The notes beneath the pieces are model-generated. The model saw nothing but the letters and a program-made list of their open reading frames with translations. It was not told where the DNA came from and did not search any database. From the NCBI GenBank assembly GCA_016217925.1, contig JACRFK010000004.1:1-44434 (forward strand): a DNA stretch of 44,434 nucleotides. The letters are read 5' to 3'. Positions 1 to 19,287 of the stretch are shown one piece after another. The DNA is from Candidatus Kaiserbacteria bacterium (GTDB lineage: Bacteria > Patescibacteriota > Minisyncoccia > Phycocordibacterales > UBA2100). The stretch's first letter is position 1, and every line of letters begins with the position of its first letter. The position numbers were made by a program, and so were the translations under genes.

Positions 1-1086
<1,086 letters not shown>

Positions 1087-1302
1087 CGCTAGGAATTCTA
1101 AGAACCGCGTATTGCTCGTTGCGTCTAAACAACGAGACTTTGTTTTCTTGCCGCTTTTTTGAAAAGGAACGGCATCCTTTTTTGCTTTGTGTTTTTTCCT
1201 GCATCACGCACCGGAGACTTTAACCGGCACGCAATGTTGTTGATTCGCACAAACCCTACTCGGGTCTGCGCTTTGTTTTTCTTTCTTTTTTTCGCTCTTC
1301 GG

Positions 1303-1314
1303 TTGTCAACGATC
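1303..1314 (-). promoter_or_regulatory. boxA-like rRNA leader motif GATCGTTGACAA
   Basis: Resembles the GATCTTTGAAAA-type boxA of rRNA leaders and lies about 220 nt upstream of the 23S. Confidence 0.45.
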
Positions 1315-1330
1315 TACGTATTTGGTCCCG

Positions 1331-1360
1331 TCCTCCGGAGGAGGATCTGCCTTCGGCAGA
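1331..1360. repeat. 30-nt double-hairpin REP-like element (family A), intergenic copy
   Basis: TCCTCC-GGA-GGAGGA + TCTGCC-TTC-GGCAGA; same layout as 2022-2051 with compensatory changes. Confidence 0.75.
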
Positions 1361-1384
1361 AAAAAAGCCGCTTGAAAGCGGCCT
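1360..1384 (-). terminator. intrinsic terminator-like hairpin in the 23S leader
   Basis: Minus strand AGGCCGC-TTTCAA-GCGGCTT followed by a T run. Confidence 0.55.
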
Positions 1385-1458
1385 GGTCGCAGAGCTGTTA
1401 CACTCGGCTACCTGTGCCACTTCGTGAAGCTTTTAAGCGATAACATATACGTCTGAGG

Positions 1459-1487
1459 AGTATATTCGGGCACGAGGAGCATGTCAA
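1459..1487 (-). promoter_or_regulatory. sigma70-type promoter facing the 23S
   Basis: TTGACA (1487-1482), 17-nt spacer, TATACT (1464-1459). Confidence 0.8.
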
Positions 1488-1567
1488 CCCCGTTAGAGGC
1501 TCCAAAAACTGTGTGTATGTGGAAATCTTGAACCTCGAAACCTTATCGGAGGTTGCCTCTAACGGGG
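1488..1567. mobile_element. MITE-like terminal-inverted-repeat (TIR) element, copy 1 (80 bp)
   Basis: Ends CCCCGTTAGAGGC / GCCTCTAACGGGG; TCAA on both flanks (1484-1487, 1568-1571). Confidence 0.7.
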
Positions 1568-1598
1568 TCAAATATTGCCGTGGACAATGAGGGGACAA

Positions 1599-2333
1599 TC
1601 AGGATTTCTTGGTTTTTTTGAGGATTTCAGCCGCCTTTGTGAGGTCTCCCGGAGCATTTATCTGTATCCAATCGGCCGTGAAAATGGGCTCAAGACGTAT
1701 CCCGAGTGCCTTTGCCGCAGCGATGACCGTCTGCGGTAGGCCGTATTCGAGACTCCCCTCTTGTTTTGGCACAAGCGGTTGAGAGAAAAGTCGTGTGTCG
1801 AGCGCGAACATGTTGGTACTCGCGAGTCCGGGTTCCGTCCCCAAATCGCCTTCAATAATCGCGGTTATGTTCGCGTTTTCGTCGAGCTGCACAGCTCCAG
1901 CACGGTGCATTTCGGGCATTTGTTGGACAAGGAGCTTCCATGAGTTCGACTCTTCGGCGCACTGTTTGAGATCTTCCGAGTCGAAAATATCATCACCGTT
2001 CAGCACCAGGAATCTGTCTTTTCCGCCGGAGGCGGATCCGCCTCCGGCGGACAGAACATCCTTGGCAGCCCACAGGGCACCCGCGGTCCCGTTGAGGTCG
2101 CCCTGCTCCACATACGTAAGCGCGCGACCGCGATACGAACCTTTATATTTCTTCTTAATAACATCAGAGAGGTGCCCGATTATCAACACGACTTCCTGTA
2201 TTTCTTCGGGAAGCGCGTCGAGTTTGTGTTCGAGCAACGTTCTGCTATCCACCACGAGCATCGGCTTGGGAACGGCGGTCGTCAATTCTTCCATGCGCGT
2301 ACCGCGCCCTGCGGCGAGAATGACTGCTTGCAT
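1599..2333 (-). CDS. sugar-phosphate nucleotidyltransferase (NTP_transferase family)
   Basis: N-terminal QAVILAAGRGTRM-KPML motif and NGDD motif. Start set at MQAV, 7 nt after TACAAT. Confidence 0.88.
   Translation of the reverse strand: MQAVILAAGRGTRMEELTTAVPKPMLVVDSRTLLEHKLDALPEEIQEVVLIIGHLSDVIKKKYKGSYRGRALTYVEQGDLNGTAGALWAAKDVLSAGGGSASGGKDRFLVLNGDDIFDSEDLKQCAEESNSWKLLVQQMPEMHRAGAVQLDENANITAIIEGDLGTEPGLASTNMFALDTRLFSQPLVPKQEGSLEYGLPQTVIAAAKALGIRLEPIFTADWIQINAPGDLTKAAEILKKTKKS
2022..2051. repeat. 30-nt perfect palindrome (family A) in frame in the nucleotidyltransferase
   Basis: TCCGCCGGAGGCGGATCCGCCTCCGGCGGA is its own reverse complement; encodes SAGGGSASGG. Confidence 0.85.
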
Positions 2334-2355
2334 GAGCACTATTGTAGCAAACGCA

Positions 2356-2384
2356 AAGCGGCCCCGCCGAAGGCGGGGCCGCTT
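2356..2384. terminator. GC-rich hairpin (13-bp stem) downstream of the MscS-like gene
   Basis: AAGCGGCCCCGCC-GAA-GGCGGGGCCGCTT; the core matches the family A half-site. Confidence 0.55.
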
Positions 2385-2402
2385 GAGAACAAAACCGAAA
2401 AC

Positions 2403-3095
2403 CTAATCCCGGTGATGCGCAATCTCCGAACGGATGCGCTCGATCGTGCGAGAAGCGGCTTCTTTGCCGCCCAAGCCGAATGCGAGACCGAATGCGAGTG
2501 AGAGGGCGATCACGAGCCCCGTGAAGAGTGTCTGGATGAACGTGCTTGCGACCTGGAGCTGATCGAGTGCTGCCATGATGGCGAAGATCCAGATGGCCCA
2601 CTTGGCGACCGCGCCAGCGAGATTTGCCGCGTGCGCACCTGCAGCTCGTGCGGAACCACTCACCAACCCTCTTACTACCTCAGCAACAACGGCACCTAGG
2701 ATAAGAATGAGGACCGCTACGATGACCTGCGGCAAGTACCCCAATACCACCTGCTGCAAGAATATCGTGACACGGTTGAGACCGAGAATGTCGAGTGAGG
2801 CGACCAAAAATACCAAAATCATGAACCACATGACCAAGGTGCCGAGGAAGCGCCCGATGTCGAGCGTGAAGCCCGCCTCCTTTGCGGCGTCGTTGAGGCC
2901 CGCCGCCTTGAGTGCGTCGTCGATTCGAAGCACTTTGACCACCTCAACTACGATGCGATACAGAATTACCCCAACTATCCAACCGATCACGAAAACGATG
3001 ACTGCCGCGAGTATCGCCGGCAGGTACTGTGCGACGGTGAACCACAGGCCCGAGAACGAGCTCTGTACCACATCCGCCGATTGCGCAACTATCAT
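2403..3095 (-). CDS. MscS-associated TM-helix repeat membrane protein (CmpX-like)
   Basis: Repeated YLPxI(L/I)xA(V/L)IxxxxG transmembrane units and C-terminal GLAFGLGGKE. Confidence 0.75.
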   Translation of the reverse strand: MIVAQSADVVQSSFSGLWFTVAQYLPAILAAVIVFVIGWIVGVILYRIVVEVVKVLRIDDALKAAGLNDAAKEAGFTLDIGRFLGTLVMWFMILVFLVASLDILGLNRVTIFLQQVVLGYLPQVIVAVLILILGAVVAEVVRGLVSGSARAAGAHAANLAGAVAKWAIWIFAIMAALDQLQVASTFIQTLFTGLVIALSLAFGLAFGLGGKEAASRTIERIRSEIAHHRD

Positions 3096-3279
3096 AAATA
3101 TATGCGTATATTAAGAATAATGTTTATAAAGGATCTTCGACCCCTGTATGGAAGTAATGATACCACCCAGGCACTTCTGTGAAGGGCCGCGGCGAAGCCC
3201 GTGTGGATACCCGCCGGAGGCGGGCGGGCGGAAAAAAGCTATATTTTGAGGCCTCGTTTGCTTCTCTCTCCCTACGGAG

Positions 3280-3903
3280 CTACAACAATCTGTCTTTATC
3301 GAGCAGCACGAGGTGCGGAAAATCGAGGGTATCCCGCATAAGACGGTCTTGAATGGTGAGACGATAGCGGAATTCCGGACCCGAAAAAGCCGCATACCGT
3401 ATCTCACGGCCAAATTGACGTTCAAGTGCACGGATCGCGGTCTCAAGACGCCCTTCGTTCAAGCCGTCTGCTGCGACCAGGAGATCGGCCGGGCGCGACG
3501 GATCCCCCATGAACGACCCCGAGAGCACCACAGCCACAAATCGCCCCGATCCCTTAAGCCCCTTGAGTATGCTGGAGTAATGCACCGGCGAGACTTCGTG
3601 CACGAATTTCGAGAGAGCTACCGAGTGCTTGAATGTGGGGTCGATTGCCCACGCCTCTTTCTTTTGTTTCCCTTCTATTGTGCGGTTGCTGCTATTTCCG
3701 AGTGTAATTACGAATTTCCCGAGCCTCAGTATCCCCAATTTCTCGAGTGCTTTTATCTCTTTCTGTGCCGCCGGCAGCGACACGCCTGCGCGCTTCGCGG
3801 CCAGAGGCGCTGTGAAGACCCCGGACTGGTCGAGAAAAAAGGCGCGGAGAACCTTGGCCCGATTCGTATTACCCATGAAAGTCGCCAAAAAGTCCCCTGC
3901 CAT
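3280..3903 (-). CDS. conserved hypothetical: winged HTH plus nucleotidyltransferase-like C-terminal domain
   Basis: N-terminal helical HTH-like segment and C-terminal VVLSGSF..ADLLV motif. Confidence 0.55.
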   Translation of the reverse strand: MAGDFLATFMGNTNRAKVLRAFFLDQSGVFTAPLAAKRAGVSLPAAQKEIKALEKLGILRLGKFVITLGNSSNRTIEGKQKKEAWAIDPTFKHSVALSKFVHEVSPVHYSSILKGLKGSGRFVAVVLSGSFMGDPSRPADLLVAADGLNEGRLETAIRALERQFGREIRYAAFSGPEFRYRLTIQDRLMRDTLDFPHLVLLDKDRLL

Positions 3904-3954
3904 AGAGGCTCATTATCCCCGTACAGAGACATCAGTCAACTTCGAAAAAACCGG

Positions 3955-4770
3955 CTATTTCCCGCTCTCCGCTATGGCCCTGAAGGTCACAAGTGCCTGG
4001 TGGAGGGCCCGCACATCATGCGTACGTATGTAGTCGGCACCCTGCGTAGCCGCGAACACCTCCGCCGCAAGTGTGCGGCTTTGGATGTCGATGTCAGGAG
4101 ACGGTGCAATGTTGCGCAGGAACGACTTGCGTGAGACCGATATCATCACCGGCAGTCCGAAGTGCTTTTTTAATTCCGCGACATGCGAGAGGACGGCGAG
4201 CGAAGGCTCCGGATTGCTTGCCAGGAAAAATCCCATGCCGGGGTCAATGATAAGGCGCTCGCGCGCGATACCTGCCGCTTCGAGTGCGGGCAACCGGGTC
4301 CCGAAAAATGAATAGATGGAGTCGAAAACTTCCCGCGTGGTTTTCGGGATGCGCACCGCCTTGTCGAGGTCGGAAATAAAATGCATGACAACCAACTGTG
4401 CCCCGGACGCCGCGAGCTCCGGATACAAAGACTCATCGGGAAATCCGCGGATATCGTTAAGATACGCGATGTGTTTTGCCATCCCAAACCGCAAGACTTC
4501 CGGTTTGGTCGCATCAATCGAAACATCAAGGCCCGGCCTTGATATTGCTTCCAATACGGACCGTATCCGTTCGATTTCAACCTCCGCCGGCACGGGTGCG
4601 GAATGCGGATTGCTCGAGGCGCCGCTTATTTCAACGATATCCGCACCTTCCGCAAGAAGTTTATTTGCGTGCTCTATCGCAGCGCCTGATTCAAGATACT
4701 GTCCGCCGTCGGAAAACGAGTCGGCGGTGATGTTGACGATGCCTACTATTTTCGGTCGATGGGCTTTCAT
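3955..4770 (-). CDS. folP: dihydropteroate synthase, Sul-like
   Basis: GIVNITADSFSDGG, DPGMGFFL, SRKSF and IRTHDV motifs. Confidence 0.93.
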   Translation of the reverse strand: MKAHRPKIVGIVNITADSFSDGGQYLESGAAIEHANKLLAEGADIVEISGASSNPHSAPVPAEVEIERIRSVLEAISRPGLDVSIDATKPEVLRFGMAKHIAYLNDIRGFPDESLYPELAASGAQLVVMHFISDLDKAVRIPKTTREVFDSIYSFFGTRLPALEAAGIARERLIIDPGMGFFLASNPEPSLAVLSHVAELKKHFGLPVMISVSRKSFLRNIAPSPDIDIQSRTLAAEVFAATQGADYIRTHDVRALHQALVTFRAIAESGK

Positions 4771-4835
4771 AGAGATAGGATTTTAGCATGGTACCCGCTT
4801 TTTGAGCTTTGCGGATGCCTCTGCTAGTATGCCGT

Positions 4836-5189
4836 ATGGATTACATTCACATTGACGACCTCAGAGTCTCCGGGAATCACGGAGTCAGAGAGGAGGAGCG
4901 GGCGAAGCCCCAAGAGTTCCTCATCTCGATACGCATCGGCGCCGACACGAAAAAAGCGGCATTGAGCGGACAACTTGCTGATACTATCGACTACCACGAC
5001 ACGCTGAAACTTATCGAACACGTATTTGAGAACACGAGCCACAGCCTCCTCGAGACAATAGCCGAGCATATCGCCGCAGAGATACTGAAGGACAAGCGCG
5101 TGAGCTCGGTCGAACTGACCATAAAAAAAACAGGCGTGTGGCGCAACGGCATCCCCGGCGTCACGATCCGCCGGGAGCAGGCCCGATGA
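4836..5189 (+). CDS. folB: dihydroneopterin aldolase
   Basis: GNHGV-EE..PQEF, DTIDY, LLETIAE and LTIKK motifs. Start at MDYI, after TG-C-TAGTAT. Confidence 0.88.
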   Translation: MDYIHIDDLRVSGNHGVREEERAKPQEFLISIRIGADTKKAALSGQLADTIDYHDTLKLIEHVFENTSHSLLETIAEHIAAEILKDKRVSSVELTIKKTGVWRNGIPGVTIRREQAR

Positions 5190-5649
5190 TGGACAATTTG
5201 TTTGGCGGGAGTTCACCCAGAAGCTGGGAGACCATCTTTTTCGTCACGGGTTCTCGAAGAGCCGGCGCAATTTCATAAAGCGGCCTCAGCACAAAGTCGC
5301 GCTCGCGCAGGCCTGCGTGCGGGACGGTGAGTTCGGGGGTATCGATAATTTCATTTCCATACAAAAGAAAGTCAATATCTATCGCTCGCGGGGCATTGTG
5401 CTCATGCTCCCCTATCTCTTTTTCAACCGACTTTATTTTCTTGAGAACATCCTCCGGAGAAAGTTCCGTCGTCGCCTCGCACACCGCATTGAAAAAGTCC
5501 GGCTGATCCGTGACATACATCGGCTTGGTTTCGTAGGTTGGTGAAATCTTCGTAACAGTAATTTCTGGCGCGAGCGAAGCGAGCGCCCTTTGAATGTTCC
5601 CTGCCCTATCGCCGAGATTTGAACCGAGTCCGAGATATATCGTCTTCAC
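5161..5649 (-). CDS. folK: 6-hydroxymethyl-7,8-dihydropterin pyrophosphokinase
   Basis: YLGLGSNLGDR, YETKP, PRAIDIDFL, LTVPH and ERDFVLRPL motifs. GTG start. Confidence 0.93.
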   Translation of the reverse strand: MKTIYLGLGSNLGDRAGNIQRALASLAPEITVTKISPTYETKPMYVTDQPDFFNAVCEATTELSPEDVLKKIKSVEKEIGEHEHNAPRAIDIDFLLYGNEIIDTPELTVPHAGLRERDFVLRPLYEIAPALREPVTKKMVSQLLGELPPNKLSIIGPAPGGS

Positions 5650-5722
5650 GCCCGCATACTAGCGCGTGCTTTTTGTCTCTGCTAGAGTGCCCTCGGCGGT
5701 ATGCGCCATGAGGAGATTGACC

Positions 5723-5977
5723 ATGAACTTGATTCAGAAGGTCAATGATTGCGGTATTCCTACGGGCGAACATTTCTCTGCGAAAGCGCCCCCAGGAAGA
5801 TTCCGTGTCGTCGTGTTCGACCAAGCGACGGGGGCCCACTATAAGCTACCCGACTTCGGATCCCTGGCCACGGCGGAAGCTGAAGCGAAGGGCCGGGCGT
5901 TCGGTCCTATCATTACCGATATCTATGACTCGGCCGGCAAGAATCTCGGCACGTTCGGGAAAAATCAGGATGAATAA
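5723..5977 (+). CDS. hypothetical protein (84 aa)
   Basis: AGGAG 7 nt before the ATG; protein-like composition; hairpin terminator follows. Confidence 0.6.
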   Translation: MNLIQKVNDCGIPTGEHFSAKAPPGRFRVVVFDQATGAHYKLPDFGSLATAEAEAKGRAFGPIITDIYDSAGKNLGTFGKNQDE

Positions 5978-5993
5978 GTTCTGATCAAACCGC

Positions 5994-6020
5994 AAATGGC
6001 CCGCATTGCGCGGGCCATTT
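5994..6020. terminator. hairpin terminator between convergent genes
   Basis: AAATGGCCCGC-ATTGC-GCGGGCCATTT followed by TGTTTT. Confidence 0.65.
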
Positions 6021-6126
6021 TGTTTTCCAGGAATGAAAAGTTTACTTGAGTGTAACCTGTCACACATCGTTTCCTGCTGGAAACGTGCGCGACCCCGCCT
6101 CGCAGCCAAGCTGCTCCGGCCGAAAG

Positions 6127-6486
6127 TTACTTCAACGTAACTTTCCCGCCTGCCGCTTCTATCTTTGTCTTCCACGCCTCCGCGTCCTCTTTCTTCACGT
6201 CGGCCTTCATGAGGACCGGCGCGCCTTCAACCATGGTCTTCGCTTCCGAGAGACCGAGGCCCAAGACCTCTTTCACGATCTTAATGACCGCGATTTTCTG
6301 TTCACCGAACGAAGTGAGTTCTACGTTGAACTCCGACTTCTCTTCGGCTGCAGGACCTGCTGCAGGACCGGCGACGGCGACTGCCGCTGCCGAGACTCCC
6401 CACTTCTCTTCGATTGCTTTGACGAGTGTGTTGAGCTCGAGCACTGTCATCTTTTCGACTGCTTCGATGATTTGTTCTTGTGTCAT
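6127..6486 (-). CDS. rplL: 50S ribosomal protein L7/L12
   Basis: [29 protein letters not shown] and AGGKVTLK. Confidence 0.97.
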
Positions 6487-6535
6487 AGGAATAGTTAGTT
6501 AGCCACTAGTGGATAGCCACTAGGGCGCTCATAAT

Positions 6536-7033
6536 TTACGAACTCTTAGTCTCTGCGACTTTACTCAACACGACCGCAAAACGCTGACGCGGTGAGTTGA
6601 TGAGTTGTGCGAACATAGCACGCAACGTCGCCATCCCCGGGATCGTTGCGATCTCCTGCATGTGCGCGGCGTCGACGAGCTTGCCCTCGAAGATGCCTCC
6701 CAGGATAGAGAGCTTGTCGGTAAATTTCTTGCCGAATTCGTGCACAAGCCGCGCCGCGACGGTGGCGTCAGTGCCCCCGCCATATGCGATAGCGACTTCG
6801 CCCTCGAGCGGCAATTCGGCATGCGCATGTCCGAGTTGTTCGAGCGCTCGGCGGATGAGCGTCTTCTTCGCGACAAAGTACGAGACACCGTCCGCGCGAA
6901 GAGCACGGCGCATCGCCGACTCGTCAGACACGGAGAATTTCGTAAAGTGCACGAAGACCGACGACGCGCCCGTCTTGAACGCCTCGGCGAGCTTATCGAC
7001 TATTACACCCTTCTCTGCTTTTGTTTTTGCCAT
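6536..7033 (-). CDS. rplJ: 50S ribosomal protein L10
   Basis: KAEK..IV..L, VAKKTLIRRA and upstream position relative to rplL. Confidence 0.95.
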   Translation of the reverse strand: MAKTKAEKGVIVDKLAEAFKTGASSVFVHFTKFSVSDESAMRRALRADGVSYFVAKKTLIRRALEQLGHAHAELPLEGEVAIAYGGGTDATVAARLVHEFGKKFTDKLSILGGIFEGKLVDAAHMQEIATIPGMATLRAMFAQLINSPRQRFAVVLSKVAETKSS

Positions 7034-7138
7034 CTTAGATTTTGTTACGAGCAAAGCGAGTTACTAAATCTTAGATCCCGTGAGATGGCGAAGCCTATCT
7101 CTCTGGGATTGTTCGACCAACAAGGTTGAGGAGTTCGA

Positions 7139-7170
7139 GCCCATTAGAGACGCTACGCGCTCTAACGGGC
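7139..7170. repeat. short hairpin sharing the TIR-family ends
   Basis: GCCCATTAGAG-ACGCTACGCG-CTCTAACGGGC; no flanking duplication. Confidence 0.65.
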
Positions 7171-7171
7171 C

Positions 7172-7248
7172 GTGCCTCGGCAGGCGTCTTACGACTTGAA
7201 TCCCGCTCTTTCACTGGAAAGGGCGGGAACCCGCTTTCTCTGGCCTTG
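7172..7248 (-). promoter_or_regulatory. probable L10 leader (rplJ autoregulatory RNA)
   Basis: Minus strand AGAGAAAGCGGG...TTCAAG...CCTGCCGAGG resembles the kink-turn core of L10 leaders and lies in the expected position. Confidence 0.5.
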
Positions 7249-19186: not shown

Positions 19187-19220
19187 AAACCAAAACCGCC
19201 CTTGCGGGCGGTTTTGGTTT
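19187..19220. terminator. terminator of the S-layer-like gene
   Basis: 15-bp perfect stem AAACCAAAACCGCCC-TTGC-GGGCGGTTTTGGTTT. Confidence 0.75.
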
Positions 19221-19287
19221 TTGTTGCCGGATCGTTCTCCTCCGGCCGGAGGACGAGCAACGAGTGTTGCTCTTCGATAAGCGCCGC

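What the first reader, a model, noticed from the sequence alone, without database searches (positions are those of the whole stretch)
1331..2051. 30-nt palindrome encoding SAGGGSASGG inside an enzyme, with a covarying intergenic twin
Seen: 2022-2051 is a perfect 30-bp palindrome of two 15-nt hairpins adding exactly 10 codons (KDVL-SAGGGSASGG-KDRFLVL). 1331-1360 has the same double-hairpin plan with compensatory substitutions; both are preceded by G and followed by AAA in one orientation. Half-sites or relatives occur at 2363-2377, 3210-3224 and 19238-19253. Inference: a REP/BIME-like family tolerated in genes because it encodes a flexible linker.
Basis: partly seen in the sequence, partly recalled or inferred. 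Interest (0 to 1): 0.68.

Follow-up and report, generated by a model that had tools for sequence, protein, structure and literature searches.

The report
Tiny double-hairpin mobile DNA in genes
The 30-base palindrome is one copy of a very short repeated DNA element made of two hairpins; it is scattered through the genomes of many uncultivated bacterial phyla, has been inserted cleanly into genes (even essential ones), and is read there as a floppy Ser/Ala/Gly loop. How it moves is unknown.

Summary
The core observation holds. Window 2022-2051 is a perfect 30-bp palindrome that adds exactly 10 codons (SAGGGSASGG) to a Kaiserbacteria nucleotidyltransferase. 1331-1360 is a second copy with compensated stem changes. 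The closest ortholog (91% identity) has a clean empty site, with no target duplication.

The 30-mer belongs to a large family: [tTt] TCCGCC-nnA-GGCGGA TCCGCC-Tnn-GGCGGA [aAa]. A capped genome scan gave 118 copies in CPR, Omnitrophota, PVC, Ignavibacteria and other phyla. In groundwater metagenomes the depth over the 30-mer rises about 400-fold.

Deep inside long ORFs, 47 of 51 copies use the one frame that gives SAxGGSAxGG. Hosts include RpoC, DnaE, DnaG, PheT, RNR and PurA. Stem changes covary within each 15-mer.

The same site is filled patchily in orthologs: NTP-transferase 6/120 (at least 5 events), DnaG 11/120 (at least 9).

Best reading: a non-autonomous selfish element, like an intragenic REP dimer, moved in trans by an unidentified enzyme. 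It lacks the GTAG or CGTC tags. RAYT-like and Ssn genes found nearby have their own, different hairpins.

The three "half-sites" are ordinary local hairpins.

The parts
2022..2051 (.). Element copy 1: TCCGCC-GGA-GGCGGA | TCCGCC-TCC-GGCGGA. A perfect 30-bp palindrome, translated on the minus strand as SAGGGSASGG.
   Evidence: sequence. (exact 30-bp insertion against L009; identical 30-mer in four other lineages while flanking third-codon positions differ). (about 400-fold depth jump over exactly this stretch in metagenomes).
1331..1360 (.). Element copy 2, the variant 'twin': TCCTCC-GGA-GGAGGA | TCTGCC-TTC-GGCAGA. It is intergenic, in the spacer between a small conserved RNA-like unit and the 23S rRNA gene.
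   Evidence: fits the family pattern far beyond chance. Both variant stems also occur in family copies elsewhere. (folds as two hairpins); relatives have a segment of the same length with two other hairpins, so arrival by insertion is not shown.
1599..2339 (-). Host gene: sugar-phosphate nucleotidyltransferase (NTP_transferase family). The insert lies in the loop between helix 93-97 and strand 109-114, just before the LVLNGDD motif.
   Evidence: Pfam PF00483. (966 homologs, named Kaiserbacteria/Patescibacteria). (pLDDT 88 overall, below 50 only at residues 100-106).
2016..2021 (.). Left flank of the insertion site on the + strand (TGTCTT|T...). On the coding strand the site is GTT CTG | AAA GAC. 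T at -2 and A at +2 are already present in the empty site.
   Evidence: empty site in L009. (family-wide: T at -2 in 83%, A at +2 in 78%, both in 78/118 copies).
2052..2057 (.). Right flank of the insertion site on the + strand (CAGAAC), which is the Leu-Val codons on the coding strand.
1361..1383 (-). Intrinsic-terminator-like hairpin GCCGCTTTCAAGCGGC plus a T run. Copy 2 abuts it directly. This is context, not part of the element.
   Evidence: hairpin and T run conserved in L009 and L007.

Best explanation
The 30-mer is a copy of a non-autonomous, selfish, hairpin-forming DNA element.

Shown:
- It belongs to a family with near-invariant stems (TCCGCC/GGCGGA twice), free loops (nnA and Tnn) and a GGATCC centre.
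- Copies are dispersed at tens per genome in many uncultivated bacterial phyla.
- Filled and empty alleles differ by exactly 30 bp, with no target duplication or loss, at sites of the form nTn|nAn.
- Copies inside genes are translated, and survive almost only in the frame that gives SAxGGSAxGG. This frame is the same on either strand because of the symmetry.
- With the GGA/TCC loops the unit is stop-free in all six frames.
- Each 15-mer keeps its own base-pairing through compensated changes.

Inferred: the unit moves as a double hairpin on single-stranded DNA. It is cut out or copied and pasted in trans by a structure- and sequence-specific enzyme encoded elsewhere, which must be horizontally shared among phyla. 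Both strands present the same two hairpins (5'-TCCGCC-loop-GGCGGA-3'). This fits enzymes that bind two hairpins as a dimer and insert without duplication, such as HUH Y1 transposases of the IS200/RAYT type, or a hairpin-specific ssDNA nuclease of the Ssn type working with host repair.

Selection then keeps only insertions in permissive surface loops. That filter, together with a real site preference, explains why the same loop is hit or retained again and again in orthologs.

My probabilities: dispersed mobile or selfish family about 0.85; the ssDNA-hairpin enzyme step about 0.35.
For: Depth over 2022-2051 rises from 17 to 7180 (run X1) and to 12706 (run X8), with hundreds of contigs diverging right at the borders. 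Extra copies occur at about 2.2 per 100 kb near index copies.

Clean insertions: window against L009 and L010 against L132 in dnaG.

Youth or DNA-level constraint: the 30-mer is identical 30/30 in lineages whose flanking third-codon positions match in only 13-26 of 40.

Patchy phylogeny: NTP-transferase 6/120 filled, at least 5 changes; DnaG 11/120 filled, at least 9 changes. The nearest neighbours of filled alleles are mostly empty. Decayed copies (L002, P0130, P0142, P0152) and a 48-51-nt three-hairpin variant at both sites (L007, L133) also occur.

Translation filter: frames 47:2:2 deep in ORFs of 200 aa or more, against 4:11:6 outside ORFs. Hosts are RpoC, DnaE, DnaG, PheT, class II RNR, PurA and Ctp. 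The insert is disordered in the model.

Hairpins: 16 compensated against 12 single changes within 15-mers; across-arm pairing gives 4 compensated against 36 mismatched.

Target: T(-2) and A(+2) are both present in 78/118 copies, against a background of about 27% each. Conservation is strongest at position 2 rather than at the junction, which argues for protein recognition rather than microhomology.

Precedent: REP dimers inside genes (PMC3733652); hairpin repeats shared across phyla together with a small cognate nuclease (PMC11893778).
Against: No mobilising enzyme was found. No gene family recurs next to the 112 loci. The window has no transposase among its large ORFs. RAYT-like Y1 genes in relatives carry other hairpins. 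The one metagenome scan for hairpin plus a RAYT N-terminus found only a RAYT-like gene that itself carries an in-frame copy (L138). If a cognate RAYT were flanked by copies as in REPtrons, several of 112 loci should have shown it.

The target preference is two-sided and symmetric. That is not what one-sided IS200/IS605 target choice predicts.

A 30-nt unit leaves no room for the guide sequences known in IS608.

No excision or insertion event was seen directly. Only assembled contigs were available, and no empty allele was seen in the source metagenome.

Recurrence at one site, with identical loops in four lineages, could also mean old insertions plus precise losses.

The intergenic twin cannot be shown to be an insertion.
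Confidence: 0.6

Rival explanations
1. It is a bona fide REP/BIME (REPIN) family, mobilised by a cognate RAYT (HUH Y1 transposase).
For: The plan is two small palindromes in inverted order with zero spacer, like the tight REP dimers reported in Opitutus and Wolbachia. Intragenic REP dimers in replication and repair genes are documented. There is no target duplication. RAYT-like Y1 genes exist in CPR relatives: L132 scores 29.3 bits on Pfam Y1_Tnp and 36 bits on NCBIfam REP_Tyr_transpos, and L063 has another.
Against: There is no GTAG/GTGG tag. The same sequence occurs in more than 10 phyla, whereas REPs are lineage-specific. The two RAYT-like genes seen are flanked by their own different hairpins (TAGTGGTTTACGAAACCACTA; TGAGCAATGGGAATCTTTGCTCA). 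No RAYT lies beside the element in 112 loci. The metagenome scan found none flanked by it.
Confidence: 0.15
2. Enzyme-free spread. Copies are made by replication template switching or hairpin-induced copy choice between an existing copy and a new TTT|AAA-like site, using only host replication and repair. This would allow the element to persist in any phylum once it has been introduced.
For: No mobiliser was found. The flanks of copies resemble each other (tTt...aAa), as microhomology-guided switching would produce. There is no duplication or deletion. Compensated stem changes are what quasipalindrome-templated correction produces. The mobility of mitochondrial double-hairpin elements and GC clusters is likewise without a known enzyme (own knowledge; PMC2800124 and PMC4478555 are listed).
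Against: Conservation is strongest at -2/+2 and weaker at the junction bases -1/+1 (83% against 59%); microhomology should be strongest at the junction. Three bases of homology is very little. It does not explain how near-identical stems are kept across phyla, nor the strong excess of one dimer arrangement.
Confidence: 0.1
3. The 30-mers are recombination scars or attachment sites. On this view they are lox/FRT-like sites, with 12-bp inverted arms around GGATCC, left in genes after precise excision of a larger element that interrupts genes.
For: The size and symmetry are like a tyrosine- or serine-recombinase core site. Joining the two ends recreates the centre sequence GGCGGA|TCCGCC. One PheT copy sits at the edge of an inserted NlpC/P60 domain.
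Against: Empty alleles lack the site completely, so it is not a pre-existing attB. No split form (half-site ... long insert ... half-site) was seen in 112 loci; solo hairpins are mostly decayed dimers. The covariation supports two separate hairpins, not arm-spacer-arm.
Confidence: 0.07
4. It is a conserved functional site, vertically inherited and often lost: a protein-binding palindrome, or an RNA structure used for regulation or processing.
For: Stems are near-invariant and pairing is maintained. One copy lies in an rRNA leader next to a terminator, where relatives also have two hairpins. REP-type repeats are known to act as RNA stabilisers or terminators.
Against: Host sites are unrelated genes in all kinds of positions. 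The closest relatives lack the copy. Copies decay freely. The flanks (T run before, A run after) are the opposite of a terminator on both strands. The frame bias shows that selection acts on the peptide, not on a shared regulatory context.
Confidence: 0.05
5. It is convergent selection for a Gly/Ser/Ala linker peptide, or an assembly or library artefact.
For: The peptide resembles engineered GGGGS linkers and the DNA contains a BamHI site (one search returned only cloning primers for the central 12-mer).
Against: The DNA is identical at all ten four-fold degenerate positions. Intergenic copies and copies in other frames exist. There is hairpin covariation. The same element appears in assemblies from many groups and assemblers, and in long-read megabase contigs. 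Flanks are exact, and decayed copies exist.
Confidence: 0.02

Closest known systems
REP / BIME / REPIN repeats with RAYT transposases, including intragenic REP dimers (Di Nocera et al. 2013, PMC3733652)
   Same: Short GC-rich palindromic units, mostly arranged as inverted dimers. Tens to hundreds of copies. No target duplication. Subfamilies have compensated stem changes. Some copies sit in-frame inside genes, notably DNA replication and repair genes, and are read as extra loops.
   Different: It has no GTAG or CGTC tag. The units are only 15 nt with 3-nt loops and no spacer (30 bp in all, against 20-30 aa for described intragenic dimers). Most copies are intragenic. The same sequence is shared by more than 10 phyla. 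No cognate RAYT was found, and RAYT-like genes in the same lineages serve other hairpins.
CGTC-tagged REPs = NTS/SRM hairpin repeats with the GIY-YIG ssDNA nuclease Ssn (Chenal et al. 2025, PMC11893778)
   Same: A hairpin repeat whose sequence is conserved across distant phyla, explained there by a small co-travelling hairpin-specific ssDNA nuclease. SRM repeats and ssn genes occur in the same genomes as this element (L011, L048, L115). One copy of the element is inserted inside an SRM-like repeat (L016).
   Different: SRM has a CGTC tag, an 8-9-bp stem, a 4-5-nt loop and an asymmetric tail, and it is mostly intergenic. The ssn genes seen here are flanked by SRM, not by the 30-mer. No role of Ssn in moving repeats has been shown.
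Rickettsia palindromic elements (RPE; 'selfish DNA in protein-coding genes', Ogata et al. 2000; from my own knowledge, and cited in PMC3733652)
   Same: Palindromic repeats inserted in-frame into many unrelated genes, including essential ones, and tolerated as surface loops.
   Different: RPEs are 100-150 bp (30-50 aa) and restricted to Rickettsia. This element is 30 bp and found in many phyla.
Mitochondrial double-hairpin elements, repetitive hairpin elements and yeast GC clusters (PMC2800124 and PMC4478555, listed; Paquin et al. 2000 from my own knowledge)
   Same: Very short GC-rich elements that fold into two hairpins. They are scattered in intergenic DNA, rRNA spacers and coding regions. 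They show presence/absence between close relatives. No enzyme is known.
   Different: Those are organellar and their sequences are lineage-specific. Many insert with short duplications at AT-rich sites.
PARCEL palindromic amphipathic repeat coding elements (PMC2996958)
   Same: Palindromic coding repeats that give a similar peptide from either strand, distributed horizontally among distant microbes.
   Different: PARCELs are much longer, occur in tandem within surface proteins and encode amphipathic helices. They are not single 10-aa loop insertions in housekeeping enzymes.
MITEs, and IS200/IS605-derived PATEs
   Same: Non-autonomous elements with inverted ends, mobilised in trans. PATEs, like this element, insert without duplication and rely on hairpins.
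   Different: MITEs make target duplications and are 50-500 bp. PATEs have asymmetric ends, guide sequences and a one-sided target tetranucleotide.

Membership tests
REP/BIME/REPIN-RAYT | Conserved GTAG (GTRG) tetranucleotide at one end of each palindromic unit | tested here: not met
   The flank and stem profile of 116 copies shows tTt before TCCGCC and aAa after GGCGGA, with no GTAG or GTGG. By contrast, the hairpins flanking the CPR RAYT-like genes do start with GTGG or GTGA.
REP/BIME/REPIN-RAYT | A RAYT (Y1 HUH) gene in the genome, typically flanked by the same REP units | tested here: not met
   No Y1 gene lies next to the element in 112 loci. L132 and L063 RAYT-like genes are flanked by other hairpins. 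The metagenome scan found none flanked by the element. Whole genomes could not be searched.
REP/BIME/REPIN-RAYT | Units mostly paired in inverted orientation, able to fold separately or together | tested here: met
   The scan pattern required two adjacent units, so how common pairing is was not measured. Among the paired copies found, about 93% have the nnA/Tnn loop order. Covariation favours separate folding. The perfect-palindrome copy can also form one long hairpin.
REP/BIME/REPIN-RAYT | Extragenic location and lineage-specific sequence | tested here: not met
   At least 62 of 118 copies lie in ORFs of 200 aa or more. Identical stems occur in more than 10 phyla.
CGTC-REP / SRM-Ssn | CGTC tag, 8-9-bp stem starting with AT, 4-5-nt loop (CGTCATTCCCGCGMAVGCGGGAATCYRG) | tested here: not met
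   The element has 6-bp stems, 3-nt loops and no CGTC. The SRM consensus is from PMC11893778.
CGTC-REP / SRM-Ssn | An ssn (cd10448 GIY-YIG) gene flanked by the repeat | tested here: not met
   Five ssn-like genes were found in 112 loci. Those inspected (L011, L048, L115) are flanked by SRM-like repeats, not by the 30-mer. GIY-YIG was confirmed by Pfam for L011.
MITE (DDE transposon derivative) | Terminal inverted repeats plus a target-site duplication | tested here: not met
   Inverted ends are present, but two filled/empty DNA pairs show no duplication and no loss. The flanks are inverted-complementary, not direct.
IS200/IS605-type (PATE) ssDNA elements | Subterminal hairpins at both ends, no duplication, insertion 3' of a fixed one-sided target tetra- or pentanucleotide, asymmetric ends | tested here: inconclusive
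   Two identical-stem hairpins on each strand and no duplication are met. The target is two-sided (T-2 and A+2 together in 66% of copies) and the ends are symmetric, which was not expected. No TnpA was found.
Rickettsia palindromic elements | 100-150-bp palindromic unit, in-frame in Rickettsia genes | tested here: not met
   The in-frame intragenic habit is met. Length (30 bp) and taxon are not.
Double-hairpin elements / GC clusters (organellar) | A short GC-rich unit folding into two adjacent hairpins, with presence/absence between close relatives, in mitochondrial DNA | tested here: inconclusive
   The two-hairpin fold and the presence/absence pattern are met. The setting is bacterial chromosomes, and no sequence relation was tested. 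This is an analogy, not membership.

The most novel reading that the evidence does not exclude
This may be a 30-nt 'nano-transposon', the smallest dispersed mobile unit known in bacteria, shared almost unchanged by more than ten phyla of mostly uncultivated bacteria. It would be driven by a so far unrecognised, horizontally shared hairpin-specific enzyme, or by host replication alone. It would insert bluntly at nTn|nAn sites and repeatedly colonise the same surface loops of essential proteins (RpoC, DnaE, DnaG, aminoacyl-tRNA synthetases). That would make it a natural, orientation-independent generator of Gly/Ser linkers, and possibly of domain-insertion points.
Probability: 0.35. Interest if true: 0.85.

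Novelty: new variant of a known kind. Interest (0 to 1): 0.75.

Why it matters
If this reading is right, a single 30-base sequence has spread through a large part of the uncultivated bacterial world and sits inside core replication, transcription and translation genes.

- It would be the most compact example of selfish DNA in protein-coding genes.
- It would be a clean natural experiment on where proteins tolerate 10-residue loops.
- It would be a useful marker of gene flow between CPR, Omnitrophota, PVC and other groundwater lineages.
- It points to an unknown hairpin-specific DNA enzyme or mechanism. The recent link between CGTC repeats and Ssn ssDNA nucleases shows that such hunts can yield new enzymes and tools.

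There are also practical consequences. The repeat breaks de Bruijn-graph assemblies at k=31. It adds spurious length variation to marker proteins. It could mislead homology-based annotation of MAGs.

Tried and rejected
**Rfam.** Searched at gathering and permissive thresholds. Only the 23S rRNA matched; nothing matched the element.

**tRNA/tmRNA scan.** None found.

**Literature.** Searches for the central 12-mer, for CPR palindromic in-frame repeats and for double-hairpin elements found only cloning primers and organellar analogues. The supplements of Di Nocera 2013 contain no TCCGCC or GGSA strings. The hairpin census paper does not mention the element.

**Neighbour-gene clustering of 112 loci.** No recurrent partner emerged. 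The only large cluster was an unrelated orthologous actinomycete gene that happens to match the degenerate pattern (L013, L018, L049, L054, L099, L109, L124), which I excluded. I also excluded L090 (Verrucomicrobia UBA5540) because its matched sequence resembles that type.

**Ssn/GIY-YIG lead.** Genes lie near the element in 3-5 loci, but they are flanked by their own SRM repeats.

**RAYT lead.**
- L132 and L063 have other cognate hairpins.
- The combined hairpin + RAYT-motif scan of metagenomes gave 7 hits. One was a RAYT-like gene with an in-frame copy (L138). One was a chance match in a RAYT N-terminal coding sequence (L140). The rest were noise.

**Viruses, phages and plasmids.** Two viral contigs only, no phages, and only weak Streptomyces plasmid matches.

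**Genes between paired copies.** L015 gave a xylose-isomerase-like TIM barrel plus an unknown protein. L029 has the pgk-tpiA-secG operon. No enzyme candidate emerged.

**Reads.** Only assembled contigs were available, so excision polymorphism could not be tested.

**The intergenic twin.** I first read it as an insertion. A realignment with the 30-mer removed showed the relatives' spacer has the same length, so I withdrew that claim.
Full report
**1. What is in the window**

The window is from a Candidatus Kaiserbacteria (Patescibacteria/CPR) genome. The best protein matches are named Kaiserbacteria. The 5' 1039 positions of a 23S rRNA lie on the minus strand at 1-1086.

Positions 2022-2051 read TCCGCCGGAGGCGGATCCGCCTCCGGCGGA. 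This is identical to its reverse complement and is made of two 15-nt units, each with a 6-bp stem and a 3-nt loop. It lies in ORF 1599-2339(-), a sugar-phosphate nucleotidyltransferase (Pfam NTP_transferase). There it is read as SAGGGSASGG between KDVL and KDRFLVL.

Positions 1331-1360 read TCCTCCGGAGGAGGATCTGCCTTCGGCAGA. The plan is the same, and the four stem differences form two compensated pairs.

The 44-kb window has only 20 perfect 6+3+6 hairpins, and the only tandem pairs are these two. With up to 7 mismatches allowed in the 24 stem positions nothing else is found; shuffles give none at 5 or fewer mismatches. The core observation is real and not chance.

**2. It is an insertion**

Of 120 orthologs, most are 233 aa. 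Only six carry extra residues at this point.
- Four have exactly SAGGGSASGG: the window, P0002, P0003 and P0020.
- One has a decayed copy, CGRGGSAPGG (P0021).
- One has a 17-residue form (P0043).

The closest relative is P0004, at 91% identity over aligned positions, from a RIFCSP Kaiserbacteria genome. It reads GTT CTG|AAA GAC where the window reads GTT CTG [30 bp] AAA GAC. Nothing is duplicated and nothing is lost.

In the window, L001, L004, L005 and L006 the 30 bp are identical at all 30 positions. In the 120 nt around them, third codon positions agree in only 13-26 of 40 between different lineages. One of these lineages is only 67% identical in protein.

On a neighbour-joining tree the six filled alleles need at least five gains or losses, and their nearest neighbours are empty.

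In an AlphaFold model (pLDDT 88) the insert is the only stretch below 50. It forms a loop between helix 93-97 and strand 109-114, just ahead of the LVLNGDD motif.

**3. It belongs to a large family**

I scanned one genome per species (GTDB) with TCYKCCNNNGGMRGATCYKCCNNNGGMRGA.

I set aside eight loci. Seven are Micromonospora or Streptomyces and belong to one unrelated orthologous gene. The eighth, L090 (Verrucomicrobia UBA5540), has a matched sequence of the same type. About 118 copies remain.

Their consensus is [tTt] TCCGCC-nnA-GGCGGA TCCGCC-Tnn-GGCGGA [aAa].
- Stems are near-invariant and the centre is always GGATCC.
- The first loop ends in A and the second starts with T.
- The other loop bases vary. 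Taking both strands together, the counts are AAA 49, AGA 43, GGA 39 and GAA 24, then CAA, TGA, CGA and others.
- The two loops vary independently, so a perfect palindrome such as the window's copy is expected in about 13% of copies and is seen in about 14%.

The carriers are many CPR lineages (Kaiser-, Saccharibacteria, Doudna-, Lipton-, Uhr-, Moranbacteria and others), Omnitrophota, Kiritimatiellae, Lentisphaerae, Verrucomicrobiota, Planctomycetes, Ignavibacteria, Elusimicrobia, Zixibacteria, KSB1, Firestonebacteria, Chloroflexota, a Desulfotomaculaceae MAG and MAGs labelled Gammaproteobacteria. They include megabase contigs from long-read assemblies.

The window was laid on groundwater metagenomes that contain it. 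Contig depth over 1999-2045 jumps from 17 to 7180 in one run and to 12706 in another. Hundreds of contigs share only the 30-mer (plus the TTT) and diverge at its borders.

Near index copies, further copies occur at about 2.2 per 100 kb, which means tens per genome.

The element is almost absent from viral contigs (2 hits). It is absent from phage records, and plasmids gave only two weak partial Streptomyces matches.

**4. It is translated and filtered by selection**

Deep inside ORFs of 200 aa or more, 47 copies are in the frame that gives SAxGGSAxGG, against 2 and 2 in the other frames. Outside ORFs the split is 4:11:6.

Because of the symmetry, either orientation gives the same peptide in that frame. 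With GGA/TCC loops no frame on either strand has a stop codon (direct reading of the sequence).

The hosts are unrelated and often essential:
- RNA polymerase beta' (L097)
- DNA polymerase III alpha (L083)
- primase (L010)
- PheT, twice (L033)
- class II ribonucleotide reductase (L027)
- adenylosuccinate synthetase (L024)
- a Ctp protease, twice (L087)

**5. A second host shows the same behaviour**

In Kaiserbacteria DnaG the site DPADLIL|KEG is filled in 11 of 120 orthologs by the count used for the tree; two more rows show only 2-3 residue remnants. The states seen are:
- intact forms: SAEGGSASGG, SAGGGSSSGG, SAKGGSVSGG, SAGGGSAPGG;
- decayed forms: SAASPSASRK, SAGGGSP, SAEDGS-SGE;
- a 16-residue form: SAGRLPAGRQGSSSGG.

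At least nine changes are needed on the tree.

At the DNA level, L010 (filled) and L132 (88% identical, empty) differ by exactly 30 bp at ATA TTG|AAA.

A second DnaG site, YLKxK|, is filled in two sequences.

The long form has a central palindrome, CTGCCTGCCGGCAGGCAG, between the outer hairpins. It occurs both in DnaG (L133) and at the nucleotidyltransferase site (L007). It is therefore a subfamily in its own right.

**6. Structure**

Variant stems (TCTGCC/GGCAGA, TCCTCC/GGAGGA) are compensated within a 15-mer in 16 cases, against 12 single changes. Pairing across the two units would give 4 compensated against 36 mismatched. The conserved fold is therefore two separate hairpins.

The window's perfect palindrome can also form one long hairpin (-19 kcal/mol as DNA). 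The twin folds only as two hairpins.

On either strand both hairpins read 5'-TCCGCC-loop-GGCGGA-3'.

**7. Target**

T at -2 occurs in 83% of copies and A at +2 in 78%. Both occur together in 78 of 118 copies, against a base frequency of about 27%. The junction bases -1 and +1 are less conserved.

The preference also holds for copies outside the coding frame, and both bases pre-exist in the two empty sites. It is therefore a symmetric target preference (nTn|nAn, most often TTT|AAA). It is not part of the element and not a protein-level effect.

**8. How it most likely works**

*Shown:* it is a dispersed family; it makes clean insertions; it is patchily distributed among close relatives; it decays; it is translated; and hairpin pairing is maintained.

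*Inferred:* it is a non-autonomous selfish element moved in trans as a double hairpin on single-stranded DNA. The enzyme would recognise the stem sequence and insert without duplication.
- HUH Y1 (IS200/RAYT-type) enzymes fit the two-hairpin, no-duplication logic.
- The precedent of CGTC repeats and Ssn nucleases (PMC11893778) shows that a hairpin repeat can be conserved across phyla together with a small cognate ssDNA enzyme.

The main loop variants (GGA to AGA, GAA and AAA; TCC to TCT, TTC and TTT) are transitions from GGA/TCC. This is compatible with a GGA/TCC founder and deamination of exposed loop cytosines, or simply with AT pressure. This is inference only. If it is right, the window's copy has the founder sequence and is young.

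I could not find the enzyme.
- No gene recurs beside the 112 loci.
- None is in the window.
- RAYT-like genes in relatives (L132 next to dnaG; L063) are flanked by other hairpins, and each carries one copy of that hairpin inside the gene.
- A metagenome scan for hairpin plus a RAYT N-terminus found only a RAYT-like gene that itself carries an in-frame copy.
- ssn genes near the element have their own SRM repeats.

**9. Rivals**

- A true REP-RAYT system (0.15).
- Enzyme-free template switching (0.10). The stronger conservation at positions -2/+2 than at the junction argues against it.
- A recombinase scar or attachment site (0.07). Empty sites lack it, and no split form was seen.
- A conserved functional site (0.05).
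- A selected linker peptide, or an artefact (0.02).

**10. The twin and the 'half-sites'**

The twin fits the family far beyond chance, and both of its variant stems occur elsewhere in the family. However, relatives have, in the same spacer between a conserved terminator and GATCGTTGA, 46-47 nt with two other hairpins. One of these is TCCTGC-14 nt-GCAGGA, or TCCTTC-14 nt-GAAGGA. Insertion plus deletion cannot be told apart from divergence in place.

The hairpin at 2363-2377 is a positionally conserved, covarying terminator-like hairpin. The one at 3210-3224 has an ortholog in L009. Neither is shown to be a family copy.

**11. Comparison with what is known, and novelty**

Intragenic REP singles and dimers, including in DnaE and uvrA, are described (PMC3733652). 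So are Rickettsia RPEs, PARCELs (PMC2996958) and organellar double-hairpin elements. The kind is therefore known.

This family differs in several ways:
- it has no GTAG or CGTC tag;
- it is only 30 bp with no spacer;
- it is mainly intragenic;
- it has a symmetric nTn|nAn target;
- it is shared almost unchanged by more than ten phyla.

I found no description of it in the accessible literature. I rate it a new variant of a known kind, with interest 0.75.

Noticed in passing
window 1361-1470 (minus strand): A promoter-like TTGACA...TATACT is followed by a unit of about 100 nt that ends in the terminator GCCGCTTTCAAGCGGC-T7. It is conserved in sequence and position in two other Kaiserbacteria loci (L009, L007), just upstream of the 23S rRNA. 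It has no Rfam match and looks like an undescribed small RNA gene.
   Followed up: partly
window 1-1598: The 23S rRNA gene (5' end at 1086, minus strand) is preceded by a nucleotidyltransferase gene and the small RNA-like unit, not by a 16S rRNA or tRNA genes. The rRNA genes appear to be unlinked.
   Followed up: no
window 2352-2386: The hairpin GCGGCCCCGCC-GAA-GGCGGGGCCGC, between the MscS-like gene and the nucleotidyltransferase gene, is conserved in position with covarying stems in L004 and L007. It is an ordinary terminator- or attenuator-like hairpin, not an element copy.
   Followed up: yes
L132:245-975 and L063:380-1100: CPR genomes encode RAYT-like Y1 (HUH) proteins of about 220 aa. 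Each is flanked on both sides by its own hairpin (TAGTGGTTTACGAAACCACTA; TGAGCAATGGGAATCTTTGCTCA), and each has one more copy of that hairpin inside the coding sequence.
   Followed up: partly
L138:780-844: A RAYT-like gene from a metagenome carries an in-frame copy of the 30-mer near its N-terminus (MRKTKF-SAQGGSASGR-QNEYYYHICNRG).
   Followed up: partly
L011:4690-5124, L048:3418-3900, L115:1003-1380: Small GIY-YIG (Ssn-type) nuclease genes are flanked by SRM/NTS-like hairpin repeats (GTCATTCC...GGAATC) in Kiritimatiellae, a 'Gammaproteobacteria' MAG and a Patescibacteria MAG. They lie within 0.2-0.8 kb of a copy of the 30-mer.
   Followed up: partly
L016:1388-1441: One copy of the element is inserted inside another repeat of the SRM type (cgtcattgcg^agcgaagcgaag), so the two repeat families are nested.
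   Followed up: no
L033:4444-6930 (minus strand): A PheT (phenylalanyl-tRNA synthetase beta) has an NlpC/P60 domain inserted into its B5 domain, directly after a copy of the element. A second copy lies near the N-terminus.
   Followed up: no
L015:4569-4752 and 6390-6572; L081:7325: In a Kiritimatiellae MAG the 30-mer is embedded in a longer repeat. In L015 this is a repeat of about 185 nt present twice, 1.8 kb apart. L081 shares the immediate flanks (ggaattt...caatccgtcttt) in the opposite orientation.
   Followed up: partly
L004:1005-1265 and L004/L009 upstream of the nucleotidyltransferase gene: The L004 spacer has a solo hairpin TCTGCCTTCGGCAGA identical to the second hairpin of the window's twin. 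L004 and L009 also share another short repeat, CGTCGAGACTTTCGCACA..TCTCC.
   Followed up: no
L013, L018, L049, L054, L099, L109, L124: Micromonospora and Streptomyces share an orthologous gene that contains a TCTGCC-nnn-GGCAGA double hairpin matching the degenerate search pattern. The context and flanks are unrelated to the family.
   Followed up: partly
window 19195-19253: A terminator (AAAACCGCCC-TTGC-GGGCGGTTTT + T run) is followed 15 nt later by the 16-bp palindrome TCCTCCGGCCGGAGGA. This shares the TCCTCC/GGAGGA arms with the twin, but it has no loop and no partner.
   Followed up: no
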